Virus record (IMG/VR): IMGVR_UViG_3300044655_000639
Location: 1 to 64,000 of that record
Reading direction: 5' to 3' (one strand)
DNA length: 64,000 nucleotides
DNA from: a virus
Positions 1 through 38,668 of this stretch are shown here, one piece after another (within the stretch, counting starts at the first letter, position 1; the number at the start of each line of letters is the position of its first letter). The position numbers and the translations under genes are program-made. The notes beneath the pieces were generated by a model. It was not told the origin of the DNA, did no database searches, and saw only the letters and a list, made by a program, of their open reading frames with translations.

Positions 1-105
1 CTGGAATGCCTACATTTTCAGAAAGAGGCTGGAGTCCTTTTGGAACATGGGGTGGAAGATAATATAAATAGTGTATAATTCCTTACCACATAAAAGGACT
101 TATAC

Positions 106-3100
106 ATGAACCTTACTGAACTACGTAATCAAGCTGCTAAGGATATTCAAGCTGAAAGATCTAAGATAGGATCTTCCTCCTATATTAACAATACAAACAT
201 ACCTTATAATGAGCCCACACTTGCTGATAGAAGATACACTGGTCTTGCTCCATATGGTGAACCTACTAAAGCAGAGAAGCTCTTAGAGGCTAGAAATGAA
301 AAGATAAATAGACTACATGCTCTTACATCTACAAGCTCTGGTGCTCAGCTACAACAAGCTCTATCAGACATTGTAGACCAGCAAGTGTACACAGATGCTA
401 ATGGTAACAAGTACCAAGAGATGTATGGTAAAGATAGTAATGGAAACACTACTATCACTAAGGTACCTTACACAAAAGAAAATGCATATGGTAATGAAGA
501 TACAAGAAATCTCTATATAGATAATACGCTAGAAGGGAATATGAAGTTAGGGTTAGCTCGTAGTGATAAAGGATTCCTAGGACGGTACACTCCTACAGAG
601 GACAGTAAAGGTAAGAAGTATGGATGGACTCCAGGACCTAAAGGTGTAACACCTCAAGATGGTGCCTTAATGGATATCCAACTACCATATAATGTAGCTA
701 CTCAATTCGAGCATGGTGTGCACTCTAACAGAGGACAACTGGCTAATAGAGCTATAGGTCAAGGTCCTGTATCAAAACAAGATATAGCAAACTTCGGAAG
801 TGGTAAGACTGAGTATACAACACAGAATGCTCCTATGTGGAATCAATCTGCTAATACTAATCCAAGACTAGCTCCAAATACTCCTCTACCTAAAGAAATG
901 GATAAACTGCATAAGTATCAAAATGGGTTACAGATAACTGATTCTAACCTAATAGATGCACTACAGTACGGTGTTGGTAGAAAAGCTGCTGGAATAGCAG
1001 ATGCTATTGTGGATGCTGGAGGACAAGTAGCAGTAGCTGGATATGGTATGATGAATCCTGAGATGACTCAAGAGCAAGTACAAAAGAAGATGGCTAAGAC
1101 TATGGGTGGAAACTCTTTCACCAAAGACTACTACAATAAAAATGGGGACTTCATAGGACTAGACAAGTACAAGAAAGCTGCAGAGTATGGATATGATGAT
1201 GCTACTACTCAAGCTGCTATGGCAGACTTCGGTAAAGCCTTTGATAGTGGAAGCCCTGTGGAGATGGCTAAGTCTATAGCACGTAATCTAGATGCTGCTC
1301 CTGAATTTATAGCAGAGAGTGCTGGAGAATTCCTGACTGGACCTATGAGAGCTGCAGGTGTAATCCTTAATACATTCGACTATGCTAATAAGACTCTAGA
1401 GAGAAGACAAGAAGAAACTGGTAAAGCATACACTACCCTAGGAGATAAAGCTCTAGCAGGTCTAACAGGATGGGGACAAGCTATACTGAATAAAGCTGGT
1501 GTAGATGAGATGATCGGTAGAACAAAGATCGTATCTGGTGTAATGGATAAGCTGATCAAGTCTAATAAGCTAACAGATGGGATGGTATTGAATGCTGGCA
1601 AGAGACTAGCAGGGGCACTGACAGTAGCAACTGGTAAAGGACTATATGAAGGTACTGAAGAAGTAGCACAGCAGTTCTTAGACATCGTAGGAGCTAAGCT
1701 TGGGGATGAAAAAGCTAATGAAATCTTCTCTAGTAAGACAGGAAGAGAACTGTTCCAAGCATTCGGAGGAGGGTTTGGGAGTGGTGCTGGAATGCATGTA
1801 GTAACATCCCCTAAAGAAACCATAGGAGCTGTACTGTCTCCTGTAATGGCTACTACTAATAAAGGACTAACAAGCCTAGCAGAAATATCAGCTAATAGAA
1901 CAGTAGCAGATATAGATGCAAGAAAAGCTAAAGAGTACATAGCAAAACAAAACGAAGTGACAGCAGCTGAGAATGCTAAAATAGAAGAGATCAAAGCTCA
2001 AGAGGAAGCTGTCACTCCTATTACTTCTACTACTACAGCAGATACGCTAGATCTAACAAGAGAAGATATATCTACTGATGAGATAAATAGTGCTGCTACA
2101 GATCTGGTAACTAAAACCATACAAGCACAAGAAGCTGGTACTGTATATGAACCTACAGTTAATGAGCAAGCATTCCAAGCTGCATATGGTGAAGCTGTTA
2201 ATGCTAAGTTCACTGAAGTATATGCTGACATAGCTACAAATACAAATACTACTAATGCTGGGCTTACCAAAGCAACACCTAAACAAATGTCAGAAGGCTC
2301 TAGGAAACTAAATGATAATCCAGAACTTGCTGCACAAAATACTGTACTAGACAAACTTAGTACAAAAGTATCTGAGGCTAAAACAGAAGTTGAAAGAACT
2401 AATGCAGAAGTTGCTTATAATTACCACCTCAATAATGTAGTTACTCCACTAATTAACAGTATAAGAGGTTTTGATGATGCAGGTAATCTAATAAGCACTG
2501 TTGAAACTTCTAGCGCAACTACTCCTGCTAAAGGAACTCCGACTATGGCAGTTAGTGATAGAACAAGTGAAACTATTCAACAAGAAATAGAGGAGTTAGG
2601 TACAAGTAGGGATAACACCTATGTAGAGGACCTGCAAAGATATGTTGATAATGGAATGGGCATAGAAGAAGCTAAAAAGAAAGCCCACTCTAATTCGAGA
2701 GAAACATTCAATAAGATAAAAGCACTAGAAGAAGAACTCAAGACTGTTAAGGCTAATGAAGTATCTCAAGATAAAGCATTCAAAGAACAAGGAATATCTG
2801 ATGATGATCTGACAATCTACAAGAATGCTGGTATAGCAAATATCATATCTGTAGACGATAGAGCTAAAGGGTTAGGTATTGAAATAGATACTGATAAGGT
2901 ACAATTAAAAGAAGGAAGCACTAAGAAGAATAAGCTGTATGATCCTATGAAAGCTGATAATGCAACTCTAGATAGTATCATAGAAAGTGGTTTCAATAAA
3001 GATACGATAGATGCATTAGATGTAAGCAATAAAGGATCCACATTTCTGCAAAGACTATCTAAACACTTCACATTCGGCAAAGAAAAGCAAGTAGAACTGA

Positions 3101-6100
3101 CTAAGATAGCAAAAGACATCACAGCTAAACTATCAAATCCTACTGTTAAAGAAGCTATGACTAAAGTATCTGGTACTGATACATCTACAGCACAAGCACT
3201 AAGAGCTATCACAGTGGCTGTAAGTGCTGTACGATCAGCTACTACAGCAGAATTCGATATCACACATGGTGAAGGTGCTAAACATAATGGATATGCTCCT
3301 CAACTGGGGCTAGCAGAGCAAGTAGGTAAAGCATACTTAAACTCATTCGGAGCTAAGCTAAAGGGTAAGGACTCTGAGAGTATGGCTGCAAAGCATAAAG
3401 AGATAGGTATGAATGTACTGAAACTAGCAGAAGCTGCTGGATATGTAGAGAGTGCTTCTAATATGTCATTCCAGGTCCATAATAGAGTAACACCTAAAGG
3501 AGATAGAGTATCCACAAGTAGAGATGGTGGTAAATCAGATATTCCTGTAGGACAGAAGTCAGGTACATTCGCTAATACTGGGTATAGAGTAAAAGGTGAC
3601 AAAGACTCTTCTCGTATACCTGAGAATGCTGTAGGTTCTACTCTATCAAGTCTGGATAAGATATTCAATCCTATCAATGAAGAGATGGTTATGAGTACTC
3701 CATCTGATGTAGTAACATCTAAGAATCCTATCTCAAAAGAGCACCAGCAGATCATAAAAGATATGCAAGGTATGAAGTTCAGAATAAAAGCTCCATTCAT
3801 AGAATTACTCAAAAGTATAAAGGCTTCTCTAGGTGATAATATGGAGGCAAATCTATCTACGAATCCTGATATTAAAAAGCTATTAGGACTGGATAAGAAG
3901 TCTACGCTACTGACAAAGATGGGAGACTCTGGTAAGAGTATCCAAAGAAAAGGTAATCTACTAAAGCTACTGGAGAACCTGGATGAACTAGAAGCCATGA
4001 GTAAAGATGGATTCCACTTCACATTAGATACTGCTATCAATGAACGTGTACATATAATGCAAACACTTCTAGAGTTCCAAGGTGATAAGTTCATGTCAAG
4101 ACAGATCCTAACAGGAGGAGAATACACTACTGGTAACAAGTATGAGTATGATATGCTGATCAATGACATAAAAGACAATCTACCAAAGGGTATGGAATAT
4201 AATGATGATAGATTGACTGCTGCTGTAAAAGACTTCAATAAAGGAGTATTCAATGGTGATCAAGCTGTGTTCAACATAGTAGCTACTATGAAAGCACTAG
4301 GCTTCGACTCTCCATTCAAGATGCTGAATGTCCTGCAAGGTATGGCTGATGTACAGAAAGCTGATGGGTACAAAGTGACTACTGAGTATGTTCCTAGTGC
4401 AGATGCTACTGCAAGTGGTGTAATGAATACTCTAATGAATCTAATCGGTATGCCTTCAATACAGAACATGTTCAATAACTGGATAAGTGGAGGTAAGTTC
4501 GATCCATATACTGCACTACTAGACGCTGTAGATCTAGATAAAGAAGGTTCTTTCAGTGAGAGAGCATTAGCTACAAACAATGTATTCAATATACTATATA
4601 AAGGATCTAATCGTGACATTACAAAGTATCCTATCATCAAATGGATATATGGTCAATGGAAAGGCAATACTGAAAGAGAGATGGCTGATAGTATAGCAGT
4701 AGACCTGCTAAAAGCTGCTACTACAGGAAATCAAGATGCACTCAATGAAGTCAATAGAATCCTAGCTACAGCTAATAAAGAAGGGTATGAGGATATACTA
4801 GTAGGCGATATAGCTGTACGATCAGGAGATGCTCATCTAATAAAAGAAGCAGAAGAACTAGAAGCTACTATCAAAGATGGTAACTATGTAATATTTGACA
4901 CTGAGACTACAGATAGTACTCAAGGTAAAAATAACCATATCATACAAGCATCTATTCGCATCTTCAAGAATGGCGTAGAACAAGAGCCTGTAATGATACA
5001 TGTGCCACTAGAAGACGGTATCACCATAAGCCAAGGTGCATTCGAGATCCACAAGGTATCAGAAGAGATTCTTAAAAGTAAGATAAAGAATGGTGAAACA
5101 AGAAAAGGTCAGATAGCTAAGATACGTAGAGCAATAGGTTCTCTGCCTATAATTGCACATAGTGCCTCTTTCGATACTTCAGCTCTTCAATTAGGAGACG
5201 GTAAGATTATCACTAATAAAGTGCATGACACTATGGCACTAGCTAAGATTGCTCAATATGAGAAAGCAGCCCAAGATGGTGGAAAGACTACAGGTGGTGT
5301 TATAAATATAAAGGCTCTTTCTAAGACATATGGTATAGAGTATGATGATAAAGCCTCTCATGATGCTGCATATGATACAGCTCAAACAAAGCTACTAATA
5401 CAACCAATGCTAGATAGATTCAATAGCGTAAAGAGTAAGCTAAAAGTAGAAGGTGCCAATAATATCAGTAACCTAACAGAAGAAGATAAAAAAGTAATAA
5501 CAGACTACTACCAAACCAACATAAGTTCTCTATATGTTCCAGCACTAGATAAAGCATTCCCTGGTGTAAAAGAGTATAGTACTGCCATGAAGACACTGTA
5601 TGGTATCCTACAAACAAGTAAAGTATGGGATGGTAGAATCAAGAGTGCTATGGGTGTAATGCAAGGCACTGGTAATAAGATGAGTGTACGTAAGCTAAAG
5701 AATGTTGTACAGGATGTAGACGGTGATCTAACACAAATAGACAAAGAGATGGATAATGAAACATCATTCCTGGTAAACCTACAGCACTCAGTAGATGCTG
5801 CGCTACTACTACTATCTATGCAGAAAGTATTGAATAATCCTAATCTAACAGAAGTTAGTGTAATGACTGTACATGATGACTTCAGAGCACAACCTAAAGT
5901 ACTACGTGAGATAATGGCAGAGTATAATAAGCTAACAAGAGAAGTAGCAGTAAAGTATGACTTCCTCAGTGTAGCAATGGATGAAGTACAAGAAGTGATA
6001 GAGAAGCTGGAAGCAAAAGAGAACAAGACTCCAGAAGAGATAAAAACTCTATCAGTAGTAAAAGCTCAATATAACTCATTCAAGAATGATAGACAATTCC

Positions 6101-9100
6101 CTGGTACTGATGGAAAGCTAACAGTAAATGAAATGCTAGAAGCTAAGAAGAAATTCTTAGAAGGAGACATAGGTCTAAAAGTACTAGGAGATAAAACTGT
6201 AGATCTAAGTGGAGTAGATACTTCTGTATCTAAGCATAAAGCCAAAGAGAAAGCAGCACAGACTCTATCAGAGAAACTACATGAAGCACTGAACAATGGT
6301 GCAGATGTAGCAACAGCTCTACAATCTGTGGTAAATACTATAAAGGTGAGTGAAGAGTATGGTGCTCTAAAGCAGAAGGTTCTAGATGCTCTATCAGGTA
6401 AGACTATAACATTCAGTAGAAGTGATCAAGGCTTTACTGGAGGTAATGGTAAAGTAACAATACCTACTGGAAAGATAGGAGAAGAAAGATTCGTAGCTTC
6501 TGCACAGAGAGCTACAGCAATGACTCCTGAAGGGCTAATAGAGACATTAGCACATGAGATAGATCATGCCTATAAGCTAAGCTATATAGAGAGTGATACA
6601 GGGCTTAAATCACCTGAGGTGAAGTATCTAAATAAAGTGGTAGAAAAGCTACGGAGAGAGCGAGATAAAGGTAATCTAACAACACTATCATCAGAAACCC
6701 AAGCACGTATAAAGTATATAGTAGAACATAAAGATGCTGGGAGAGCTGTGAGTGAGCTGGTATCAGTACTAGAGAATGAAATCTCTGTATCCAATGAGAT
6801 TAAAGGAATAGTACAAGCACCTACACTTCTAGAAGTGCTATCTAACCTCATCAAGAGAGTGAAGGAATGGGTTAAAGCAATGACTCAAGATGAGAGAAAA
6901 TCTCGTATAAGTGAAGCTATGAGTAATGATGATACTACTATGATGGCACTAGAAGCATCTCTAATAGAAGTAAGTATTAACTCTAAAGCATATGGTGTAG
7001 GAGATGGTAAAGCTATGGCTAGAGCTTCAGCTAAGTCAGATACTGATACGGTAAATGATCCATACTTCAATGAGAATCTAAATCCGTTAGTAGCAGCTAA
7101 TAAAGCTATGGCTAAGTCTAATAGATTCCTATCAGACTGGATGATCATATGGGGTGATCTAATAGCTCAAGAAGTAGGACCTATAGCTGGTAAGTTCCAT
7201 AATAAGATGAAAGAGAAATATCCTGTGTATGTTCAGACAATGAGTATGATACGATCAGGATTCTATGAGAGTGAGTGGATGCAAAAGATGCATACAAATC
7301 TAGGAGTAGATGGATCAAGATCTGAAGTAATCAATAAGCTGCAGACTCTACGTCATGAGATAGGGCAACAGACAGGAGCACTAGCTAGAAAGATGGCAGA
7401 GCTTAAAAGAAGACAAGAAGAAGTCTATACAAAGAAAGAGCGTAATACATTATATGCTATGTTCAAGACTGGTATAGGGCATCTATCAACAGAAGAGCTA
7501 AAGACAGTACATGATGGTATCTTCAATGGAAGTATGACATATAAAGAAGCTATAGCTATAGTATCTGATGGTATGACTGCTGATCAAATAAGACAGTTAG
7601 ATAATGTTGCTAACTACGTAAATACTGGTAATACTACTGAGACAGCAAGAGAAGTGAATACACTATTCATAGAAGGTGTATCAGAAGAGAAAGGTGGAGC
7701 ATACGTAGCATTGAAAGCATTATCTCAAATACCTGGATCACTAGAACTGCTAAAGGGCATGGATAAAGATATGCTGAAAGAGATGCTGTCTATTGCAAAT
7801 GCTAACAAACATCTAAGTGAAGTAATCAATAGAGCAAAGACAGACTACACAGGTAAGAAGATCACTAATGAAGCTGGTTACTATAGTGACTATGATGTAA
7901 CGTATGCTATGGACATCTTCAATGAGAATCATGAGTATGTACTGATCACTGCAGAAGATCTAAAAAGAAGCATCTACTCAGAAACCAATGGATGGTTTGT
8001 AGTAAAGGGTGTAGAGAATGGAGTAGGTCTGGTAGGAAGAAAAAGTTATTCTCCTACTAATAGACCAGGTGTTGGACTAGAAGTAACAAGATACCAGAAT
8101 GGTGTATACCTAGATCCAGAACAATCAGCTAAGATGGATAACATAATAGGAAAGTTAAAATCTAAAGAAGCAGTATCAGCATATCTAGATGCAAACAGTA
8201 TCACAATGGATAATGGTAAATACAGATTTGTAATAGATGAGAAGACTAAAAGAGAGAAACTTGATCTAGTAGAGGATTCAGCTGAGTCTCTATATAGAAC
8301 ATATATCAGAAACTTCGAACTAGTACATGCTCAAAGTATTAAGGATATAGTGCTCAATGAAGGAATTCAACATATCAATACAGAAAAGGATATGCTAATC
8401 CTAAATACTATTCTAGAAACTAACAATAAAGAGAGAGGTCTACTAAGTAGAACTAAAGTACTACCATTCCTAAAAGTAAACTATGATATGAAGATGACAT
8501 ATGATGAAATGGCTAAGAAATACCCATACATTGCAATGTATTTTAGAACTCCTAATAATCTATCAACATATCAAGAGTTCAACCAGAACATAACATTTGT
8601 AAAGAAAGGTGAAGGTGATGTGCTGTTAGGATACAAGCCAGGAACATTATTCGCAGATAGTGATAATAGATCCCTAGCAAAATGGGAATCTATGTATAAG
8701 AAACTAATAGTACTATCAAAGCAAAAGATGATTGTAACAAACCCTAAGAAGCTTGCTGTAGATGCTGCTGCTAACATGGGGATCCTATCTATGTATGATA
8801 TGGACCCAATGTCTATATTCAGAGGAATGAAAGATGGATTCACAGAGTACCATAAGTTAACAGCTAAAAGAAACACTCTAGTAGATGTGGAACTTAAAGC
8901 AAGAATAGCCTTCAATAGTAAAGATACTGCAAAGTATGAAGTACTGATGAAAAGACGTGATAAGATAAATGCTCAGCTAAAAGAGATGAAGTTCTATGAT
9001 GCATGGAAATCAGGTTTCATACAGTCATACAGTACAGATCTAGTACTTAAAGAGTTTGATACTATCAGTGGTATCCAAAGAGATATAGATATATTCATAG

Positions 9101-9792
9101 ATAAATATACTATTGATGAGAAAGGTGATCCAAATGCATTGTATAAAGCTATAAAGTGGTGGCAAGAAGCTGGAGGACCAAAAGCTAATGTAGAAACATT
9201 CTTCAGTGCTGTTAGTAAAGCAAGTGCATTAAAAGGGACAATGTTAAGTACTGAGTTAAAAGAGCTGAGTGAGAGATTAAAGAATAAGAAGAATGAAGAG
9301 AGTGTGGCAAGGTATGTCAGCGAGTTCCTAGGAAGTCCCTCATCTGAAGTGGTAAGCTATGGTAGTGCTACTATGGTGTTGATAGATGCCCTATCTAAGT
9401 ATCTTCTAGCAAATCACCTAATGACTCAAGAGAATCCTAGAAAGGGTAAAGTAGGTGCAAGACCTATGTATACTAAAGAAGAAGCATACGCTATAGCTCA
9501 AGAGACATTCATAGACTATAGAGATAATCTTCCAAAAGAAGTACAGACACTAAGTGACTATGGTGTATTACTGTTCCCAGCATACTGGATGCGAGTACAG
9601 AAGATACTAGCGGGACTAGCATTGTACCACCCTATAAGCTCGCTAGGAGGATTTGCAATAGAAGCTTCACTAGGTATTGAGAGCATGAGTGCAATGAACT
9701 CTAACCTGTTTACAAAGGGGGCAAATGAAGGGCTTATAAACCTAAACCCAGCTGAGGTGATAGATGCAGGTTCTGTAATGGTATTGCTCTAA
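106..9792 (+). CDS. Virion-encapsidated RNA polymerase (N4 gp50-like), with inserted DEDDh exonuclease and HExxH motif
   Basis: 3228 aa with no Cys seen. T7-superfamily motif A DATASG (4402), motif B RDITK..IYG (4612-4653), motif C VHDDF (5872). Last late gene, converging on the middle genes as in N4. Confidence 0.93.
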   Translation: MNLTELRNQAAKDIQAERSKIGSSSYINNTNIPYNEPTLADRRYTGLAPYGEPTKAEKLLEARNEKINRLHALTSTSSGAQLQQALSDIVDQQVYTDANGNKYQEMYGKDSNGNTTITKVPYTKENAYGNEDTRNLYIDNTLEGNMKLGLARSDKGFLGRYTPTEDSKGKKYGWTPGPKGVTPQDGALMDIQLPYNVATQFEHGVHSNRGQLANRAIGQGPVSKQDIANFGSGKTEYTTQNAPMWNQSANTNPRLAPNTPLPKEMDKLHKYQNGLQITDSNLIDALQYGVGRKAAGIADAIVDAGGQVAVAGYGMMNPEMTQEQVQKKMAKTMGGNSFTKDYYNKNGDFIGLDKYKKAAEYGYDDATTQAAMADFGKAFDSGSPVEMAKSIARNLDAAPEFIAESAGEFLTGPMRAAGVILNTFDYANKTLERRQEETGKAYTTLGDKALAGLTGWGQAILNKAGVDEMIGRTKIVSGVMDKLIKSNKLTDGMVLNAGKRLAGALTVATGKGLYEGTEEVAQQFLDIVGAKLGDEKANEIFSSKTGRELFQAFGGGFGSGAGMHVVTSPKETIGAVLSPVMATTNKGLTSLAEISANRTVADIDARKAKEYIAKQNEVTAAENAKIEEIKAQEEAVTPITSTTTADTLDLTREDISTDEINSAATDLVTKTIQAQEAGTVYEPTVNEQAFQAAYGEAVNAKFTEVYADIATNTNTTNAGLTKATPKQMSEGSRKLNDNPELAAQNTVLDKLSTKVSEAKTEVERTNAEVAYNYHLNNVVTPLINSIRGFDDAGNLISTVETSSATTPAKGTPTMAVSDRTSETIQQEIEELGTSRDNTYVEDLQRYVDNGMGIEEAKKKAHSNSRETFNKIKALEEELKTVKANEVSQDKAFKEQGISDDDLTIYKNAGIANIISVDDRAKGLGIEIDTDKVQLKEGSTKKNKLYDPMKADNATLDSIIESGFNKDTIDALDVSNKGSTFLQRLSKHFTFGKEKQVELTKIAKDITAKLSNPTVKEAMTKVSGTDTSTAQALRAITVAVSAVRSATTAEFDITHGEGAKHNGYAPQLGLAEQVGKAYLNSFGAKLKGKDSESMAAKHKEIGMNVLKLAEAAGYVESASNMSFQVHNRVTPKGDRVSTSRDGGKSDIPVGQKSGTFANTGYRVKGDKDSSRIPENAVGSTLSSLDKIFNPINEEMVMSTPSDVVTSKNPISKEHQQIIKDMQGMKFRIKAPFIELLKSIKASLGDNMEANLSTNPDIKKLLGLDKKSTLLTKMGDSGKSIQRKGNLLKLLENLDELEAMSKDGFHFTLDTAINERVHIMQTLLEFQGDKFMSRQILTGGEYTTGNKYEYDMLINDIKDNLPKGMEYNDDRLTAAVKDFNKGVFNGDQAVFNIVATMKALGFDSPFKMLNVLQGMADVQKADGYKVTTEYVPSADATASGVMNTLMNLIGMPSIQNMFNNWISGGKFDPYTALLDAVDLDKEGSFSERALATNNVFNILYKGSNRDITKYPIIKWIYGQWKGNTEREMADSIAVDLLKAATTGNQDALNEVNRILATANKEGYEDILVGDIAVRSGDAHLIKEAEELEATIKDGNYVIFDTETTDSTQGKNNHIIQASIRIFKNGVEQEPVMIHVPLEDGITISQGAFEIHKVSEEILKSKIKNGETRKGQIAKIRRAIGSLPIIAHSASFDTSALQLGDGKIITNKVHDTMALAKIAQYEKAAQDGGKTTGGVINIKALSKTYGIEYDDKASHDAAYDTAQTKLLIQPMLDRFNSVKSKLKVEGANNISNLTEEDKKVITDYYQTNISSLYVPALDKAFPGVKEYSTAMKTLYGILQTSKVWDGRIKSAMGVMQGTGNKMSVRKLKNVVQDVDGDLTQIDKEMDNETSFLVNLQHSVDAALLLLSMQKVLNNPNLTEVSVMTVHDDFRAQPKVLREIMAEYNKLTREVAVKYDFLSVAMDEVQEVIEKLEAKENKTPEEIKTLSVVKAQYNSFKNDRQFPGTDGKLTVNEMLEAKKKFLEGDIGLKVLGDKTVDLSGVDTSVSKHKAKEKAAQTLSEKLHEALNNGADVATALQSVVNTIKVSEEYGALKQKVLDALSGKTITFSRSDQGFTGGNGKVTIPTGKIGEERFVASAQRATAMTPEGLIETLAHEIDHAYKLSYIESDTGLKSPEVKYLNKVVEKLRRERDKGNLTTLSSETQARIKYIVEHKDAGRAVSELVSVLENEISVSNEIKGIVQAPTLLEVLSNLIKRVKEWVKAMTQDERKSRISEAMSNDDTTMMALEASLIEVSINSKAYGVGDGKAMARASAKSDTDTVNDPYFNENLNPLVAANKAMAKSNRFLSDWMIIWGDLIAQEVGPIAGKFHNKMKEKYPVYVQTMSMIRSGFYESEWMQKMHTNLGVDGSRSEVINKLQTLRHEIGQQTGALARKMAELKRRQEEVYTKKERNTLYAMFKTGIGHLSTEELKTVHDGIFNGSMTYKEAIAIVSDGMTADQIRQLDNVANYVNTGNTTETAREVNTLFIEGVSEEKGGAYVALKALSQIPGSLELLKGMDKDMLKEMLSIANANKHLSEVINRAKTDYTGKKITNEAGYYSDYDVTYAMDIFNENHEYVLITAEDLKRSIYSETNGWFVVKGVENGVGLVGRKSYSPTNRPGVGLEVTRYQNGVYLDPEQSAKMDNIIGKLKSKEAVSAYLDANSITMDNGKYRFVIDEKTKREKLDLVEDSAESLYRTYIRNFELVHAQSIKDIVLNEGIQHINTEKDMLILNTILETNNKERGLLSRTKVLPFLKVNYDMKMTYDEMAKKYPYIAMYFRTPNNLSTYQEFNQNITFVKKGEGDVLLGYKPGTLFADSDNRSLAKWESMYKKLIVLSKQKMIVTNPKKLAVDAAANMGILSMYDMDPMSIFRGMKDGFTEYHKLTAKRNTLVDVELKARIAFNSKDTAKYEVLMKRRDKINAQLKEMKFYDAWKSGFIQSYSTDLVLKEFDTISGIQRDIDIFIDKYTIDEKGDPNALYKAIKWWQEAGGPKANVETFFSAVSKASALKGTMLSTELKELSERLKNKKNEESVARYVSEFLGSPSSEVVSYGSATMVLIDALSKYLLANHLMTQENPRKGKVGARPMYTKEEAYAIAQETFIDYRDNLPKEVQTLSDYGVLLFPAYWMRVQKILAGLALYHPISSLGGFAIEASLGIESMSAMNSNLFTKGANEGLINLNPAEVIDAGSVMVLL

Positions 9793-24976: not shown

Positions 24977-27055
24977 TTAGTGGCATTCTGCCCAATTACG
25001 TCCTGATAGGACTTCTCCTGTGTAGGTACACTTCATACCTAACAGTTCTGAGACTTTAGCATATGATGTCTGTAGTATATTCTTTACAGCTTCTACACAA
25101 TCATCACGTACAATAAAGTCAACTTCATCATATATGGTAGCCTGTTGTTTGAAGTGCTCACCATGTATAAGACCTGCTTCTGCAAATGCCTGATGTATTA
25201 TGGTAAGGTAGTTCTTCATAGCTTCAGCACCCTGACCTTGACAGAAATAGTTGAGACACTTATGAGGTGAGTCTACTGGTATGAGTCTTCCTCCAAGAGT
25301 GAGAATACCTCCACTCTGTTTAGCATCATTAGTGAGTTTCTTAATGAGATCTGCTAGACCATCTGTAGACTTAATCAGTCTGTCTTGTACTTGCTTTCCG
25401 AAGATAGCCTGCTTAACCAGTTGGTCATCATATTTGACGTAGACTGCTGCTGTACCTGATTTAACTGGATAATAGTATTCACCATCTGCTTCTCTAAGAC
25501 GACCTTCAATAGAGGACACAGCATCATTCCACTCTGACTGAGTATAGTCTGTGAAGTCCTTACGCCCAAGGAGAGTGTACCCAGTAAGTGTTGATGAAGA
25601 TCCATAAAGAAACCCAAACCATAAAGGCTTTGCATCTGTTCTAGAGACTCCACATGATTTTGCATTAAGACTATGCAAGTCTGTTCCAAGATCTTTGTCT
25701 CCTGAAGTGTTGATCTCATTTAGTCTTCCTCCATCAAATTCATATAAAGCTTCTGCCAGGTTTACGTTCTCCTGTCCTCCAAAGTCAGTACCAACAAATG
25801 TCCATCCTTCAGGAGCTGTAAACAGTTCTCTGAATTCTTTAGCTGCTGGTATCTGATTAAGATTAACTGAGGAGGAAGTGAACCTCCCAGTGACAGTACC
25901 GTTAGTATCAATACGAGATGTTATGGTAGAGTCATATCGTACTGCTTCATTGAGACCCCTAAGCTGAGACAAGTCTTTCACTATCTTGAGGTAACGCCTC
26001 AGGTCTGCCCCATAGTCTCCAAGAGCAGTGAGTTCTTCACCATCTACTTTAGCGGTACCTTTATCTGTATACGTACTGAATTCAAAATCATACTGCTGTT
26101 TAAGCCAATGACGTATCTTATGGCGAGAACCTGGATCAAACTTCGTAAGCTCTACTGGAGTGTAATCACCACCACTGTAATGAGTGTATACAATACGATG
26201 AGGTCTATCAAACCAAGCATACTTCTTGAAACGTATCTTCCCATTCTTCAGTATGGTGTACTGGAATGGATGATATGCTATAGCAGTGAGATACTGATAG
26301 TTCTCATCAGGAATATATTGCTTAGTCCTACGAGGCTTAGCAGGTGTGACATCAGGACCTTTACGTAGAATCAAAGGCTTGAATGTACGAGACAGTCTCA
26401 TAGAGATACTAAGCTGTTCATGCATGAGCTTCTGCATCAGAGAACGTCCTGCATCAATATCATAATAAAATCCATAGTGTACCTGCTGAGCAATGAGTTG
26501 TGCTACTTCATGCTCCAAGTCAATGACAGATTGTGATGGAAAGTTCTTAGCTGATAGCAAGTTCTGATATAGCTGATATGTAACGTCTACGTCCTGAATA
26601 CAATAGCTCATCATAGAAGTGTTGAGTTTACTCCAATCAGAATGAGAACCTTTAGGATACTGCATACGATCACCAAAGGCTTCAAGTGAGAACGAACCAT
26701 ACTTAGACTTGTTGAAGTCAGGTATGGTATAGTCAAGTTCTGATAGTTCATCCTTAGTGTAGATAAGCTTAGCAAGAAGCATAGTATCAAGACATGTAGT
26801 ATGAAGAGTTCCTAGTATGTTATTCACAACGATACAGTCAAAACCAATACCATTATGAGCAATAACTAGATCAACGCTATTAAGTACCTCTAATGCATTC
26901 CTGAGAGTACCGCTACTACCAGGAAGGTAATGTGAAGTGTATATCTGTGTAGGACTATCATCAATCTTAATAGCAATACAATGAATCTTATCTACAGCAT
27001 ACACACCTTCTACTGGAATGGCAGATGTTTCTAAGTCGAATACTGCTGTAGTCAT
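24977..27055 (-). CDS. DNA polymerase family A with 3'-5' exonuclease
   Basis: ExoI FDLET, HNGIGFD, YCIQDV; TVTGRF; motif A DFGGQE; motif B RTDAK..FLYG; motif C IYDE. Confidence 0.95.
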   Translation of the reverse strand: MTTAVFDLETSAIPVEGVYAVDKIHCIAIKIDDSPTQIYTSHYLPGSSGTLRNALEVLNSVDLVIAHNGIGFDCIVVNNILGTLHTTCLDTMLLAKLIYTKDELSELDYTIPDFNKSKYGSFSLEAFGDRMQYPKGSHSDWSKLNTSMMSYCIQDVDVTYQLYQNLLSAKNFPSQSVIDLEHEVAQLIAQQVHYGFYYDIDAGRSLMQKLMHEQLSISMRLSRTFKPLILRKGPDVTPAKPRRTKQYIPDENYQYLTAIAYHPFQYTILKNGKIRFKKYAWFDRPHRIVYTHYSGGDYTPVELTKFDPGSRHKIRHWLKQQYDFEFSTYTDKGTAKVDGEELTALGDYGADLRRYLKIVKDLSQLRGLNEAVRYDSTITSRIDTNGTVTGRFTSSSVNLNQIPAAKEFRELFTAPEGWTFVGTDFGGQENVNLAEALYEFDGGRLNEINTSGDKDLGTDLHSLNAKSCGVSRTDAKPLWFGFLYGSSSTLTGYTLLGRKDFTDYTQSEWNDAVSSIEGRLREADGEYYYPVKSGTAAVYVKYDDQLVKQAIFGKQVQDRLIKSTDGLADLIKKLTNDAKQSGGILTLGGRLIPVDSPHKCLNYFCQGQGAEAMKNYLTIIHQAFAEAGLIHGEHFKQQATIYDEVDFIVRDDCVEAVKNILQTSYAKVSELLGMKCTYTGEVLSGRNWAECH

Positions 27056-34789: not shown

Positions 34790-36604
34790 TTAGTCTTCAT
34801 AAGACAACGGCATACCTGCCATAATGTCATCTCTACTAAGACTACCTTTAGTGATACGAAACTGTAGTGATGGATCAATCTGAGTAAGAATATCATGAAG
34901 TAAATTCATGTCATTAACATCAGCCATAACAGCCTTAACAAGACTGAATAACTTCTCTTCATTACCTTCTTCAATACCATATGAATCATGAATCATACTG
35001 ATAGCAAAGTCAGCTCTACGGCATACTTCTCTAGCTATGAACGACTCTACAGAACGTACAATATTAGGAGCTAAACTTCTGTTATACTTAGTATTATTAG
35101 GAACTTTAGCTTCAATAGATACACTATGAGTCTTACCCATTTGAAGATCAGCATAGTATCCTTTATGTGTAACAGTCTCCATTACATCATATGATACAAC
35201 AAAGCCATCAGGCATTGTCCACTGATAGTGTGATTGGTTCTCATTGTTGAATCTATAGATAAGATTCATAAGCTTAAGTGCTGCAGGAGCAAGCTCTTCT
35301 AATGCAGTCATAATGAACTTATATAGACCAGCTTTAAGCTCTTCTGGAACTAAGTCTCTGATAGTATGTGTACCAGCATAACGTACATCATCCTTGATAG
35401 TATCAGTATTATCCAATAGCTGTTTCTCCATACCACCATAGAATGCAATCATTACTAAGTGTTTAACTGTATCCTTAACAAAGATACTACTACCAGTATG
35501 CTCATTAAGTCTTCTAGCTAATTCAATACGTAAGTCTTCCAACTCAGTATCTGAGAGTCCTACTCTACTACCTGTCAATGGATCACTACCAAGTAATGCA
35601 TATACTTGTAGATTATTATTTCTACAGTCATACTTCTTAATACTGTTGCCATTGATTGTAAGCATACGCTTCTGAAATGAATCACCTTGTGGATTAAGGT
35701 ATGGACTACATGAATGCATACGTCCTGAACTATTCTCAAATGCATATGGCACATGGAATGTCTCATCTTGAAATCTATGAATATCTTCTACTAACTTGTT
35801 CCACTCTTTAGCCATGAATACACCATCTTTATCAAACCATTTGTCTTGTAATTTATACTCTTCTAATAAAGGAACTAGTTCTTCATTAGGTATAAGCTTA
35901 AATGGTACTGACTGTTGGTGATTCAATGCAGATAATGCTGCTTCACCTTGTGCTGTAAGACCACTAAGCATAGTCTTACCTGATAAATACGTTCCTCCTT
36001 TATTCTCTGCAGTATGTGCTACTAATCTATAAGCTGCTCCTCCACTACGTACTGTAGAAGCTTTAAGATAGAGTCCTTCTTCTTGTAAGAATGCTTGTAG
36101 TTTAATACTAGGCTCAATGATATTATGTGTATGAGCTTTGTCTGTCTTAATGATCTTATTTTGTAGAAAACCAGTATCTTTAAGGAACTGAATAATGTTA
36201 GCTCCAAGTGTAGCTTTAGTGCTGTGACTAGCACGTACTCTACCTGTACTTAATGTTATTACTTTGTTACAAAGCTGTTGACCTAGCTTGTAACCTGCAA
36301 TCCTGTGTTCGAGGTAACTATGGCTGATTACAAGATCCTCAATGAGGATTGTAAACACTTTAGCCCACTGAATATTGTGTTGAGACAACAGCTCATGATG
36401 GTACTCTTTATGTTCTATCTCACTGTTATTAATAGCTATTAAGTACTCACTCCAATTACTGCCTAATGTCTCTGCATTAAGCTTAGAAACACTGTCTTTA
36501 ATTGCTAGTCTAAGACCAGCTAAGCTATAACTAGCTTCGTATGACTGCTGCTTAGCAGCAACTGCTTGGATTTGTGCAAATGTAAGTGTTGATAATGTTT
36601 TCAT
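34790..36604 (-). CDS. Single-chain T7-like RNA polymerase (N4 RNAPII equivalent, unsplit)
   Basis: SSGRMH..LNPQG, motif A YDCRNNNLQ, motif B KDTVK..FYGG, LAPNIVRS, motif C IHDSY; start revised to MKTLST (GAGGAG RBS). Confidence 0.88.
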   Translation of the reverse strand: MKTLSTLTFAQIQAVAAKQQSYEASYSLAGLRLAIKDSVSKLNAETLGSNWSEYLIAINNSEIEHKEYHHELLSQHNIQWAKVFTILIEDLVISHSYLEHRIAGYKLGQQLCNKVITLSTGRVRASHSTKATLGANIIQFLKDTGFLQNKIIKTDKAHTHNIIEPSIKLQAFLQEEGLYLKASTVRSGGAAYRLVAHTAENKGGTYLSGKTMLSGLTAQGEAALSALNHQQSVPFKLIPNEELVPLLEEYKLQDKWFDKDGVFMAKEWNKLVEDIHRFQDETFHVPYAFENSSGRMHSCSPYLNPQGDSFQKRMLTINGNSIKKYDCRNNNLQVYALLGSDPLTGSRVGLSDTELEDLRIELARRLNEHTGSSIFVKDTVKHLVMIAFYGGMEKQLLDNTDTIKDDVRYAGTHTIRDLVPEELKAGLYKFIMTALEELAPAALKLMNLIYRFNNENQSHYQWTMPDGFVVSYDVMETVTHKGYYADLQMGKTHSVSIEAKVPNNTKYNRSLAPNIVRSVESFIAREVCRRADFAISMIHDSYGIEEGNEEKLFSLVKAVMADVNDMNLLHDILTQIDPSLQFRITKGSLSRDDIMAGMPLSYED

Positions 36605-36622
36605 AATATTCTCCTCAGAATA

Positions 36623-36640
36623 ATACACTCTATGGTGTAT
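36623..36640 (-). promoter_or_regulatory. TCTATG-loop hairpin, copy 2
   Basis: ATACAC-TCTATG-GTGTAT. Confidence 0.6.
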
Positions 36641-37328: not shown

Positions 37329-37384
37329 GATTGTAGACGTTGGTATGAACATTATCAGTGACCATGTAAAAGAGCTAGGCTCTA

Positions 37385-37408
37385 TACTACCATCCGAAGA
37401 TAGTAGTA
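37385..37408 (-). terminator. C(UUCG)G hairpin
   Basis: - strand CTACTATC-TTCG-GATGGTAG with one G-U pair. Confidence 0.5.
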
Positions 37409-37413
37409 AGAAC

Positions 37414-37518
37414 TCAGTGCATTACTATTGAATAGCTCTTAGGAGTCATAATGAATCCAACAATAGTAAGGAGAAGTGTAGCATTATCTACAAGTGTAGA
37501 GATGATGATGTGTGACAT
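37414..37518 (-). CDS. First early micro-ORF, 34 aa, hydrophobic
   Basis: AAAGGA RBS; MSHIIISTLVDNATLLLTIVGFIMTPKSYSIVMH. Confidence 0.45.
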   Translation of the reverse strand: MSHIIISTLVDNATLLLTIVGFIMTPKSYSIVMH

Positions 37519-37538
37519 GGTAGATCCTTTGTGTAGTA

Positions 37539-37556
37539 CATAGCTCTATGACTATG
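37539..37556 (-). promoter_or_regulatory. TCTATG-loop hairpin, copy 5
   Basis: CATAGC-TCTATG-ACTATG (T-G closing pair on the - strand). Confidence 0.5.
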
Positions 37557-37948
37557 ATAGTGAAGAAAGAGGCTCCACTGGATTATAGGGGCGGATACCC
37601 TCCAACTGAATATCCCTCCACCTATCTCTGCACCCTTACAAAATATTTTCAAAACTGTGTAATCCAAATCTTAATTATTTCTTAGTAGCAGAGTAGCGCA
37701 TGAAGTGGAGAATAAGGAGGGATTGTTGTATATGTTGAAGTAGATGTTTGCTGTCACTGCTACTGCGTAGGGCTAAATAAATCTAACCCCCCAGCGCAGT
37801 CGTTAACCATTCAGATTCCTGATCGTATCATAGATCGTTATGTATTGTCAAACATAACGCTATAGTGCTCTACTATGATATGAAATATACTATAATTTGC
37901 ATAACAGTAATAACATATGGTATGATTCGGTAAAGATAAGGAGTATTA

Positions 37949-38668
37949 ATGCCAATATCGCTAGAAGTACTAAGAGATAGTCTAGGTAAGAAGAAAGGTG
38001 CTCTAGTAAGCCAAGAGACTGTAGATGAGCTGAATAGGCTAGAGGAAGATCCTGACTATGGTGATGAGTTCACTGATGCTTATAAGCAGTATTTCAATGT
38101 ACTAGAGAAGAATAGTGCATGGTCTACTCCAAAGTATATGCATGCTTTAAAGTTCTTCTCACTGATGGAGTCTGATCATAGTGCAGTAGATGCTTATGTT
38201 AAGACATTCCCTGAGAGACTAGCTGCTAGACATGCTAGAGGTGAGACCAAAAAGGATATGGGAGGAGAAGCTAGTAGATATAATGCTAGTGCTCTAGTCA
38301 ATGAGATACGAAGAGTAGCAGGAATATCTGTAAAGTTAACTCATAGACATACTATGCTGAAAGCTATACAGGTTACTACTGATCTTATGTTGGATAGGAA
38401 TGTAAGTCCTGCTGTAAGACAGAAAGCTGCAGAGACATTGATCAGAGAACTAAGACCTGAAGAGGATAGTAATGTAGTGATCAAGGTAGGTATGACTGAT
38501 GATATGAAGAATCAACAGGCTAAGCTGGTAGATCATATCGGTACCATAGCACTTAACCAGCAGAAGATGCTAGCAGCAGGTATGAGGATAGAAGATATAC
38601 AAAGACTGAATGTATCAGTGATCAGAGATGAAGAATACGAGGAAGCAGAATATGTTGAAGCTGACTAA
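37949..38668 (+). CDS. N4 gp69-like protein (candidate small terminase)
   Basis: Precedes the large terminase; AY.KTFPER and VSP.VRQ.AA patterns. Confidence 0.65.
   Translation: MPISLEVLRDSLGKKKGALVSQETVDELNRLEEDPDYGDEFTDAYKQYFNVLEKNSAWSTPKYMHALKFFSLMESDHSAVDAYVKTFPERLAARHARGETKKDMGGEASRYNASALVNEIRRVAGISVKLTHRHTMLKAIQVTTDLMLDRNVSPAVRQKAAETLIRELRPEEDSNVVIKVGMTDDMKNQQAKLVDHIGTIALNQQKMLAAGMRIEDIQRLNVSVIRDEEYEEAEYVEAD

What the first reader, a model, noticed from the sequence alone, without database searches (positions are those of the whole stretch)
4880..5420. Intact DEDDh 3'-5' exonuclease inserted inside the catalytic core of the virion RNA polymerase
Seen: between RNAP motif B (4612-4653) and motif C (5872) lies a domain of about 175 aa with all DnaQ-family motifs: ExoI VIFDTETT, IH.V.EE, ExoII AHSASFD, DTMALA, ExoIII SHDAAYD. 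Known: T7-type single-subunit RNAPs, including N4 mini-vRNAP, carry no proofreading exonuclease, and vRNAP is injected with the DNA. Inference: this could be a proofreading or RNA 3'-trimming single-subunit RNAP, or a nuclease delivered at the moment of infection against defence nucleic acids or host DNA ends.
Basis: partly seen in the sequence, partly recalled or inferred. Interest (0 to 1): 0.88.

Follow-up and report, generated by a model that had tools for sequence, protein, structure and literature searches.

The report
Exonuclease domain inside phage virion RNA polymerase
The giant RNA polymerase that this uncultured lake phage injects with its DNA has an intact-looking DNA-polymerase-type 3'-5' exonuclease domain spliced into the fingers of its catalytic core. 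I found this layout in only four protein clusters and in no cultured phage or paper, and its job is still open.

Summary
Observation confirmed. ORF 106-9792 encodes a 3228-aa N4-type virion RNA polymerase (vRNAP). Between motif B (aa 1503-1516) and the specificity hairpin and motif C (D1924) lies a roughly 215-235-aa insert (nt 4774-5475). It scores as RNase_T/DnaQ (Pfam 3.5e-8; PolC-type exonuclease 1e-13) and folds as a DEDDh exonuclease (pLDDT 87; TM 0.78-0.81 to epsilon/DnaQ).

D1598, E1600, D1690, H1752 and D1757 are invariant in the four known carriers, whose exonuclease domains are only 27-31% identical. The polymerase motifs are intact.

The insert is optional. Fifteen homologous vRNAPs have a 7-30-residue loop at the same site, including ones 86-92% identical in the flanks. 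A complete insert-less relative genome has no RNase_T domain at all.

No GenBank phage, and only two other IMG/VR contigs, carry the insert. Independent lake metagenome contigs bridge both junctions.

Function is untested. My best guess (about 0.35) is a polymerase-tethered 3'-end editor that rescues stalled or chain-terminated early transcripts. A trans-acting injected nuclease is nearly as likely.

This scan has already noted DEDDh fusions to virion RNAPs on other DNA: a different site in another N4-like vRNAP, and the N-terminus of two-barrel RNAP-tape-measure proteins. It is a new variant of a known kind.

The parts
106..9792 (+). 3228-aa N4-type virion RNA polymerase (vRNAP) gene
   Evidence: Single ORF. 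C-terminus hits phrog_2206 'virion RNA polymerase', E 1e-15. The AF2 model of aa 965-2162 matches N4 mini-vRNAP 3C3L/2PO4/9PNQ at Foldseek E 2e-8 to 2e-6 and T7 RNAP at 4e-5. Neighbouring genes are N4-like: portal phrog_1216, primase phrog_2135, T7-like RNAPII.
3925..3939 (+). T/DxxGR-type motif (DSGKS; K1277 in place of the usual R)
   Evidence: Aligns with S/ExGRS of the homologues. hhalign against N4 mini-vRNAP runs through this region.
4399..4419 (+). RNAP motif A (ADATASG, catalytic D1433)
   Evidence: D, A, S and G are invariant in 20 homologues. Aligned to N4 mini-vRNAP D559 by hhalign, a weak alignment.
4612..4653 (+). RNAP motif B / O-helix (R1503, K1507, Y1515, G1516)
   Evidence: RxxxKx7YG spacing read from the sequence. 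R, K, Y and G are invariant. Aligned to N4 K670/Y678.
4774..5475 (+). Inserted cassette (aa ~1557-1790) in a fingers loop: linker, helix, DEDDh fold, long helix, linker
   Evidence: 234 aa here, 212-218 aa in three other vRNAPs, 7-30 aa in 15 homologues at the same alignment site. blastp of insert-less loci skips core residues 657-887. Linkers at model residues 593-610 and 814-822 have pLDDT below 50. GC is 0.372 against 0.368-0.376 in the flanks.
4888..5388 (+). DEDDh (RNase_T/DnaQ-like) 3'-5' exonuclease fold, aa 1595-1761
   Evidence: Pfam PF00929 E 3.5e-8 and the six-frame hit. Exo-only AF2 model: pLDDT 87.4, pTM 0.85. Foldseek target-normalised TM: 0.81 to DnaQ domain 8H2F, 0.78 to E. coli epsilon 1J53, 0.72 to PolC exonuclease 2P1J, 0.67 to RNase T.
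4897..4905 (+). ExoI catalytic D1598 and E1600 (FDTETT)
   Evidence: Invariant in the four vRNAP exonuclease domains and in the 43-row alignment with PolC-type exonucleases.
5173..5175 (+). ExoII catalytic D1690 (AHSASFD)
   Evidence: Invariant in both alignments.
5359..5376 (+). ExoIII H1752 and D1757 (HDAAYD, the 'h' of DEDDh)
   Evidence: Invariant among the four vRNAP exonucleases. Nearly invariant with PolC-type exonucleases.
5689..5754 (+). Long beta-hairpin, candidate specificity loop, followed by the VNLQHSVD helix (5773-5796)
   Evidence: Model strands 898-907 and 910-919. N-x-x-H-x-x-D is invariant. Its position, 41-62 aa before motif C, matches N4 D901/R904 relative to D951 (PMC4496689). 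The assignment is an inference.
5866..5883 (+). RNAP motif C (TVHDDF, catalytic D1924)
   Evidence: D invariant, H nearly invariant. This stretch gave the only PDB sequence hit to an RNAP, N4 RNAPII 6DT7, E 0.19.
6553..6567 (+). HExxH motif (HEIDH) at the start of the C-terminal domain
   Evidence: Invariant in all homologues. N4 gp50 has the same ETLxHExxHA context at residue 2228. Described for N4 subdomain C1 in PMC13434306.

Best explanation
The gene encodes a bifunctional virion RNA polymerase. An N4-type single-subunit RNAP has all its catalytic motifs. Its fingers subdomain carries a PolC/epsilon-type DEDDh 3'-5' exonuclease module with a complete active site. The module sits in the loop after the two helices that follow motif B and before the two helices that lead to the specificity hairpin, and it is held by two probably flexible linkers.

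The module is an optional cassette: closely related vRNAPs work without it.

Most likely mode of action (my odds about 0.35): because it is tethered next to the polymerase centre of an enzyme that is injected in few copies and cannot be replaced early in infection, it trims 3' ends produced at that centre. It would remove the terminal nucleotide(s) of stalled, mis-extended or chain-terminated early transcripts so that transcription, and with it DNA entry, can resume. A counter to nucleotide-analogue defences such as prokaryotic viperins would fit its patchy distribution.

Shown here: the fold, the catalytic residues, the insertion site, intact polymerase motifs, rarity, and presence/absence among close relatives.

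Inferred: catalytic activity, RNA 3' ends as substrate, and the purpose.
For: Identity and intactness:
- Pfam, PHROG and NCBIfam hits.
- Exo-only model with pLDDT 87 and TM 0.78-0.81 to epsilon/DnaQ.
- The five DEDDh residues are invariant in four vRNAP exonuclease domains that share only 27-31% identity.

Position inside the catalytic core:
- Motif order A, B, insert, hairpin, C.
- The model matches N4 mini-vRNAP and T7 RNAP.
- The insert is at the same site in all four carriers.

The polymerase is intact: motif residues are invariant.

The sequence is real: independent lake-metagenome contigs bridge both junctions with no differences.

Coupling to the polymerase rather than to delivery alone:
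- In a 3228-aa protein with long flexible regions, the module lies within the Pol domain.
- A second, unrelated kind of RNAP-like virion protein (P0025: two-barrel RNAP-like region plus tape measure) carries a DEDDh domain of the same PHROG family.
- Earlier notes of this scan report more such fusions, always near the RNAP core (I did not check these).

Precedents:
- Epsilon works as a 'proofreading exonuclease on a tether' (title of PMC3664792, listed).
- The exonuclease of PolC-type polymerases lies at about residues 400-650 of 1430-1670-residue frames, far from either end.
- Coronavirus nsp14 ExoN excises the viperin product ddhCMP from RNA 3' ends (PMC9415739).
- Prokaryotic viperins make ddhNTP chain terminators that stop T7 RNAP transcription (PMC12926258 citing Bernheim 2021).
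Against: - No activity, substrate or geometry was measured.
- The linkers have pLDDT below 50 and whole-model pTM is 0.51, so no fixed docking on the polymerase is predicted.
- Fifteen of 19 homologues lack the module. A complete insert-less relative has no RNase_T domain anywhere. It is therefore not part of the basic transcription mechanism.
- The nearest sequence relatives are DNA-proofreading exonucleases (PolC, epsilon), with RNase T weaker.
- The phage's second, T7-like RNAP (34790-36628) has no such domain, although it would be exposed to the same chain terminators.
- A fingers location differs from where family A DNA polymerases carry their exonuclease (my own knowledge).
- I found no residues in the polymerase that track presence of the insert.
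Confidence: 0.35

Rival explanations
1. Injected effector nuclease acting in trans. The vRNAP is only the vehicle. Once in the cell, the tethered exonuclease attacks free 3' ends of DNA (or RNA) that are not its own transcript: host DNA ends or nicks, defence-system nucleic acids, or the termini of the entering phage genome.
For: - Patchy, cassette-like distribution among close relatives, as expected of arms-race accessories.
- No stand-alone RNase_T gene in a complete insert-less relative.
- Low-confidence linkers on both sides.
- Closest families are DNA exonucleases: PolC, epsilon, ExoX, DinG exonuclease.
- The domain is also found at the N-terminus of a tape-measure-fused protein, P0025, where a beads-on-a-string cargo reading is natural.
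- N4 vRNAP is known to be ejected with the DNA (PMC13492108 and PMC13434306).
Against: - If it were mere cargo, insertion in the long N- or C-terminal regions would be less risky than inside the fingers of the catalytic core.
- All fusions seen so far are to RNA polymerases and lie close to the RNAP core.
- One specific version is disfavoured by polarity: resecting the entering end to expose a single-stranded template. The early genes lie on the - strand left of about 37.4 kb, so the template strand would have its 3' end at that terminus and would be the strand destroyed. This is an inference from gene layout.
Confidence: 0.33
2. Primer or R-loop processing. The exonuclease trims vRNAP transcripts or DNA 3' ends so that the phage DNA polymerase can start replication from them.
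For: - The DNA-polymerase-type exonuclease family.
- The module is fixed to the enzyme that makes the first RNAs on the genome.
- T7-like RNAPs are known to prime replication (my own knowledge).
Against: - Relatives replicate without it.
- The phage DNA polymerase has its own exonuclease region (24977-27055, phrog_403).
- No direct evidence was found.
Confidence: 0.08
3. Catalytically silent module kept for binding single-stranded nucleic acid, or as a structural spacer in the fingers.
For: - DEDDh folds bind 3' ends.
- vRNAP needs single-stranded hairpin promoters (PMC4496689).
Against: - All five metal-binding and general-base residues are invariant at 27-31% overall identity. That is hard to explain without catalysis.
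- Pseudo-enzymes usually lose such residues (my own knowledge).
Confidence: 0.07
4. Artefact: a chimeric assembly or mis-joined contig.
For: None found.
Against: - A single uninterrupted frame.
- GC equals that of the flanks.
- The same architecture occurs in four divergent clusters from JGI, Logan, ENA and NCBI data.
- Contigs from other lake runs span the junctions with no differences.
Confidence: 0.01

Closest known systems
Coliphage N4 gp50 virion RNA polymerase (mini-vRNAP PDB 2PO4, 3C3L; full-length 9PNQ/9PNR/9PNT)
   Same: - A giant (over 3000 aa) protein with a central T7-like right-hand polymerase, motifs TxxGR/A/B/C, a specificity hairpin, and a C-terminal domain starting with a conserved HExxH.
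- Foldseek top hits.
- N4-like gene neighbourhood.
   Different: - Only about 12% identity; phmmer does not find it.
- N4 has no exonuclease: the words 'exonuclease' and 'nuclease' do not occur in PMC13434306.
- N4 has 273 residues between the motif B Tyr and the motif C Asp. The figure is 409 here and about 195 in insert-less members of this family.
PolC-type DNA polymerase III exonuclease domain (NF001688/TIGR01405; PDB 2P1J) and E. coli epsilon (PDB 1J53)
   Same: - Best family hits for all four vRNAP exonucleases.
- Same fold, TM 0.72-0.78, and the same DEDDh residues.
- In PolC-type frames the exonuclease also lies far from either end of a long polymerase chain (about residues 400-650 of 1430-1670).
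   Different: - Only 24-31% identity.
- The host protein is a DNA-dependent RNA polymerase of a different fold class.
- Scores are far below the equivalog cut-offs (49.7 against 873 bits), so this is domain-level likeness only.
Family A DNA polymerases with 3'-5' exonuclease (Klenow fragment, T7 DNA polymerase)
   Same: The polymerase fold is homologous to T7-like RNAPs, and polymerase and exonuclease are in one chain (my own knowledge).
   Different: There the exonuclease is of the DEDDy type, lies N-terminal to the polymerase domain and is constant in the family. Here it is DEDDh, lies inside the fingers and is optional.
Coronavirus nsp14 ExoN working with the RdRp
   Same: A DEDDh-superfamily exonuclease that edits the 3' end of a viral polymerase's RNA product and removes the natural chain terminator ddhCMP (PMC9415739). 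This is a functional analogue of my preferred reading.
   Different: A separate protein, an RNA-dependent polymerase, and an animal virus. There is no sequence relation beyond the superfamily.
DEDDh fused to other virion RNA polymerases
   Same: - The same PHROG exonuclease family (phrog_192) is joined to a virion-delivered RNAP. P0025 has RNase_T 163-324, an RNAP beta-like region 1475-1574 and a tape-measure C-terminus.
- Earlier notes e1-6035584, e1-5979869 and others report further cases.
   Different: - A different RNAP fold, or a different insertion site (N-terminus, or the linker after the polymerase core).
- Here the domain is nested within the fingers between motifs B and C.
- The gp96 paper does not contain the words exonuclease, nuclease, DnaQ or DEDD (PMC10770324).

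Membership tests
DEDDh (DnaQ-like, Pfam RNase_T PF00929) 3'-5' exonucleases | ExoI motif with Asp and Glu (DxE) | tested here: met
   FDTETT, D1598/E1600; invariant in both alignments.
DEDDh (DnaQ-like, Pfam RNase_T PF00929) 3'-5' exonucleases | ExoII Asp | tested here: met
   AHSASFD, D1690; invariant.
DEDDh (DnaQ-like, Pfam RNase_T PF00929) 3'-5' exonucleases | ExoIII H-x4-D (His rather than Tyr) | tested here: met
   HDAAYD, H1752/D1757; invariant in the four vRNAP domains.
DEDDh (DnaQ-like, Pfam RNase_T PF00929) 3'-5' exonucleases | Family profile score above the curated threshold | tested here: met
   34.6 bits against a gathering score of 24. The other carriers score 43.5 and 71.7 bits.
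DEDDh (DnaQ-like, Pfam RNase_T PF00929) 3'-5' exonucleases | RNase H-like alpha/beta fold | tested here: met
   AF2 pLDDT 87.4 and pTM 0.85. Foldseek target-normalised TM 0.81 to 8H2F and 0.78 to 1J53, rmsd 2.8-3.3.
DEDDh (DnaQ-like, Pfam RNase_T PF00929) 3'-5' exonucleases | Metal-dependent 3'-5' exonuclease activity | not testable with these tools
   Needs a biochemical assay.
N4-type virion RNA polymerase (T7-like single-subunit RNAP) | Catalytic motifs T/DxxGR, A, B and C in order | tested here: met
   DSGKS (K for R), ADATASG, RxxxKx7YG, HDD. Residues are invariant in 20 homologues.
N4-type virion RNA polymerase (T7-like single-subunit RNAP) | Right-hand polymerase fold like N4 mini-vRNAP | tested here: met
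   Foldseek E 2e-8 to 3C3L and 1e-7 to 2PO4, probability 1.00. TM is only 0.34-0.38 from a model with pLDDT 68.9.
N4-type virion RNA polymerase (T7-like single-subunit RNAP) | Large C-terminal domain of vRNAP type | tested here: met
   phrog_2206 E 1e-15 at aa 2857-3220. HExxH in the same context as N4.
N4-type virion RNA polymerase (T7-like single-subunit RNAP) | Packaged in the virion and ejected into the host | not testable with these tools
   Inferred from homology to N4 gp50 and from the N4-like genome.
Proofreading polymerase (polymerase and editing exonuclease acting on one 3' end) | The exonuclease site can be reached by the product's 3' end | not testable with these tools
The linkers have pLDDT below 50.
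Proofreading polymerase (polymerase and editing exonuclease acting on one 3' end) | The exonuclease is a constant part of the polymerase family | tested here: not met
   15 of 19 homologues lack it, including sisters 86-92% identical in the flanks.
PolC (NF001688 equivalog) | Whole-protein score above the equivalog cut-off | tested here: not met
   49.7 bits against 873. Only the exonuclease domain is alike.

The most novel reading that the evidence does not exclude
This would be the first DNA-dependent RNA polymerase with a built-in editing exonuclease. The injected vRNAP would use the DEDDh module to excise chain-terminating or mis-incorporated nucleotides from its own stalled transcripts. 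That would make it a phage counter-defence against nucleotide-analogue immunity such as prokaryotic viperins, evolved convergently in single-subunit and two-barrel virion RNAPs.
Probability: 0.2. Interest if true: 0.95.

Novelty: new variant of a known kind. Interest (0 to 1): 0.74.

Why it matters
Single-subunit (T7/N4-type) RNA polymerases are textbook examples of polymerases without any editing nuclease.

Here a complete, selectively maintained DNA-polymerase-type exonuclease sits inside the catalytic fingers of such an enzyme. That enzyme is injected with the genome and must work at once in a hostile cell.

If the module edits transcripts, it would be a new way to make transcription resistant to errors or chain terminators, and a new phage counter-defence. 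If it is a delivered nuclease, it would show that the vRNAP is also a vehicle for effector domains.

Natural exo-plus and exo-minus alleles in near-identical polymerases give a ready-made experiment. The recurrence of DEDDh fusions on unrelated virion RNAPs suggests a general, undescribed need in early infection.

Tried and rejected
- **Sequence search of PDB with the core.** N4 mini-vRNAP was not found by phmmer, only RNase T and N4 RNAPII at E above 0.1. The fold search was needed.
- **Mapping the site onto N4 residue numbers.** hhalign of the family profile against N4 mini-vRNAP aligned motifs A and B but stopped at N4 residue 699 (probability 1.6%). A global hhalign of the B-to-C segment failed. 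The site is therefore described by motif order and model secondary structure only.
- **VIA-align libraries.** pdb_via and pdb_via_wide were not on the machine. No model coordinates are exposed, so the distance from exonuclease site to polymerase site was not measured.
- **Alignments A1 and A2.** Their query tails were smeared over the homologues' C-termini, so they were not used for folding. A3 was used instead.
- **Word-based protein searches for further carriers.**
  - The 'longer' search only reached 2000 aa and returned PolC and UvrD-fused exonucleases.
  - The region-restricted search returned only the query.
  - The count of four clusters is therefore a lower bound.
  - The 50%-identity library may hide exo-plus members behind exo-minus representatives; P0003 and P0004 did not appear.
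- **Selection analysis.** The near-identical variants have 0-18 amino-acid differences and none in the exonuclease (P0001/P0002, P0020/P0055, L002/L010). The lake contigs show no differences. No dN/dS was possible.
- **Residues co-varying with insert presence.** Only scattered positions turned up, with no cluster in the Pol domain.
- **Resection idea.** I considered that the exonuclease resects the entering DNA end to expose a single-stranded template, and set it aside on strand polarity (an inference).
- **Mobile homing element or intein.** There are no such motifs, and DEDDh is not a homing nuclease.
- **RNA-library contigs.** They cover parts of the region but cannot show transcription.
- **Complex prediction.** Not run. 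With four carriers there is no co-variation signal, and a negative result would say nothing.
Full report
**What is there**

The window is the first 64 kb of a 74,282-base IMG/VR virus contig. Its gene content is N4-like:
- portal phrog_1216, E 3.5e-222
- primase phrog_2135
- a T7-like second RNAP
- ribonucleotide reductase
- a DNA polymerase with its own exonuclease region

The frame 106-9792 (+) is one uninterrupted 3228-aa ORF. Its C-terminus matches the PHROG 'virion RNA polymerase' (phrog_2206, E 1e-15).

- motif A, ADATASG (D1433)
- motif B, RDITKYPIIKWIYG (nt 4612-4653)
- ExoI, VIFDTETT (4888-4911)
- ExoII, AHSASFD (5155-5175)
- DTMALA (5227-5244)
- ExoIII, SHDAAYD (5356-5376)
- motif C, TVHDDF (5866-5883)

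**Is it an exonuclease?**

Sequence evidence:
- Pfam RNase_T (PF00929) matches aa 1595-1761 at E 3.5e-8, 34.6 bits against a cut-off of 24.
- PHROG phrog_192, 'DNA polymerase exonuclease subunit', scores E 3e-20.
- In NCBIfam the best families are the exonuclease region of PolC-type DNA polymerase III (E 1e-13 for this protein, 3e-27 for the best of the four carriers) and epsilon subunits. RNase T is much weaker.

Structural evidence:
- I folded the domain with 42 relatives. The model has mean pLDDT 87.4 and pTM 0.85, with the beta1-beta2-beta3-alpha-beta4-alpha-beta5-alpha order of the DnaQ fold.
- Foldseek gives target-normalised TM 0.81 to the S. thermophilus DnaQ domain (8H2F), 0.78 to E. 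coli epsilon (1J53), 0.74 to ExoX, 0.72 to the PolC exonuclease (2P1J) and 0.67 to RNase T.

Conservation:
- The four vRNAP-borne copies share only 27-31% identity.
- D1598, E1600, D1690, H1752 and D1757 are invariant among them. They also align with the catalytic residues of PolC-type exonucleases.
- I read this as purifying selection on a working active site. That is an inference; activity itself was not tested.

**Is it inside the polymerase core?**

A 1198-residue model (aa 965-2162; 20-sequence alignment; pLDDT 68.9, pTM 0.51) has these top structural matches:
- N4 mini-vRNAP (3C3L at E 2e-8, also 2PO4 and 9PNQ)
- T7 RNAP (4e-5)
- separately, for the insert, DnaQ, RNase T and the PolC exonuclease

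A weak hhalign alignment puts D1433 on N4 D559 and K1507/Y1515 on N4 K670/Y678.

In the model the order of elements is:
1. Two helices after motif B (aa 1519-1539 and 1543-1556).
2. A low-confidence linker.
3. A helix (1573-1591).
4. The exonuclease fold.
5. A long helix, then a second low-confidence linker.
6. Two helices.
7. A long beta-hairpin (1862-1883).
8. The invariant VNLQHSVD helix.
9. Motif C.

From its distance to motif C I take the hairpin to be the specificity loop (N4 D901/R904 against D951; PMC4496689). The module is therefore nested in the fingers subdomain, between motif B and the specificity loop. Motif residues of the polymerase are invariant across 20 homologues, so the polymerase itself looks functional.

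I could not place the site on N4 residue numbers. I also could not measure the distance between the two active sites, because no coordinates were available.

**An optional cassette**

Of 19 homologous vRNAPs of 2226-3228 aa, four have 212-234 residues at this site: P0001, P0003, P0004 and P0020. The other fifteen have 7-30 residues.

On a quick maximum-likelihood tree of the protein without the insert, the carriers are scattered (SH-aLRT support only, the careful search did not finish):
- P0003 lies inside a clade of insert-less proteins (support 100).
- P0004 is sister to two insert-less proteins (support 100).
- P0001 stands alone.
- P0020 is the most distant.

P0003 and insert-less P0005/P0010 are 85-92% identical on both sides of the site, and their DNA aligns well on both sides of a roughly 600-nt in-frame indel.

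Exonuclease identity between carriers is flat at 28-35%, whatever the divergence of the flanks (23-54%). The four domains are only marginally closer to each other than to PolC-type exonucleases.

A shared site argues for one origin followed by repeated loss or recombinational exchange. I cannot tell which.

A complete (terminal-repeat) 67.7-kb genome of an insert-less relative, and a 60.6-kb one, contain no RNase_T domain anywhere. So the function is not simply encoded elsewhere in those phages.

**How rare it is**

- tblastn of this domain and of the P0020 domain against 50,697 GenBank phage records hit only stand-alone DnaQ-like, DinG or DNA-polymerase genes at 23-33% identity. No vRNAP was hit.
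- In IMG/VR, only two other contigs (P0003-type) carry it in a 3064-aa frame.
- In 241 million metagenome records, the only other carrier among the 80 best was the same 33-kb contig. The rest were mostly PolC-sized frames of about 1430-1670 aa, with some shorter ones.
- In 1.84 billion representative proteins, only 32 reach E 1e-3, and only P0020 is strong.
- The count of four clusters is a lower bound (see Tried and rejected).
- Papers on N4 and Schitoviridae vRNAP structure do not contain the words 'exonuclease' or 'nuclease' in connection with the vRNAP.

**It is real**

The stretch 4400-6000 occurs in at least eight lake-water metagenome runs. A 2559-base contig from another run spans 4486-6000 with no differences. 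Contigs from a further run bridge each junction. GC of the insert equals that of its flanks.

**What it may do**

Three facts constrain the answer:
- The active site is maintained.
- The module is dispensable for the family.
- It is attached to a polymerase that, by homology with N4, is injected with the DNA and makes the first transcripts (PMC13492108, PMC13434306).

A fourth observation is suggestive. A DEDDh domain of the same PHROG family is also fused to an unrelated RNAP-like virion protein. P0025 has RNase_T at 163-324, an RNAP beta-like region with a NADYDGD string, and a tape-measure C-terminus. This scan's earlier notes list several more such fusions, and another N4-like vRNAP with the domain after the polymerase core (I did not check these).

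Repeated joining to RNAP cores, at different sites, suggests the nuclease needs to be near the polymerase but not in a precise geometry.

I therefore prefer a tethered 3'-end editor that rescues stalled or chain-terminated early transcripts (about 0.35). Precedents are the tethered epsilon subunit (PMC3664792), nsp14 ExoN removing the viperin product ddhCMP (PMC9415739), and prokaryotic viperins stopping T7 RNAP (PMC12926258).

Nearly as likely (about 0.33) is a nuclease delivered for action in trans on DNA or RNA ends. The DNA-exonuclease affinities and the flexible linkers favour that reading.

Primer processing (0.08) and a silent binding module (0.07) are less likely. An artefact is excluded for practical purposes.

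**Verdict**

The architecture, a DEDDh exonuclease nested in the fingers of a T7/N4-type RNAP, was not found described. It is a new variant of known kinds. Related fusions were already noted by this scan on other DNA. The function needs the bench.

Noticed in passing
window 6553-6567 (aa 2150-2154): The HExxH motif (HEIDH), about 105 aa into the C-terminal domain, is invariant in all 20 family members. N4 gp50 has it in the same ETLxHExxHA context at residue 2228. The N4 paper PMC13434306 already mentions a conserved HExxH in subdomain C1; its role is unknown.
   Followed up: partly
protein P0025 (hit; not in the window): A 2601-aa metagenomic protein combines an N-terminal RNase_T domain (163-324, E 1e-24), an RNAP beta-like region (phrog_2987, 1475-1574) with a NADYDGD string, and a tape-measure C-terminus (PF10145). 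This is a DEDDh exonuclease on a two-barrel virion RNAP-tape-measure fusion.
   Followed up: partly
window 4402-4440 (motif A), runs X2, X3, X5, X12: In the same lake metagenomes, other contigs match only the motif A stretch, with 4 differences. They continue as sequence translating to KVTTSYMVES, as in the P0003/P0005-type vRNAPs. Related phages therefore co-occur with this one, which gives opportunity for exchange of the cassette.
   Followed up: no
window 3925-3939: The T/DxxGR motif reads DSGKS here (Lys1277), where relatives and N4 have Arg.
   Followed up: no
window 1-106 and about 37352-37949: The vRNAP gene starts 106 nt from the contig start. The - strand block (9803-37352) and the + strand block (37949 onward) diverge at about 37.4-37.9 kb. 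By analogy with N4, the true genome ends and the early region probably lie there, and the contig is permuted.
   Followed up: no
window 4846-5781 (aa 1581-1892): The phrog_192 profile match runs about 100 residues past the end of the insert into the fingers helices. It does the same in P0020 (1370-1684) and P0025 (73-437). I did not test whether that is alignment stretch or a shared helical extension.
   Followed up: no
loci L015, L018, L021, L022, L023 (IMG/VR contigs): Frames of 1368-1391 aa begin with a related DEDDh domain. The rest of these proteins was not identified.
   Followed up: no
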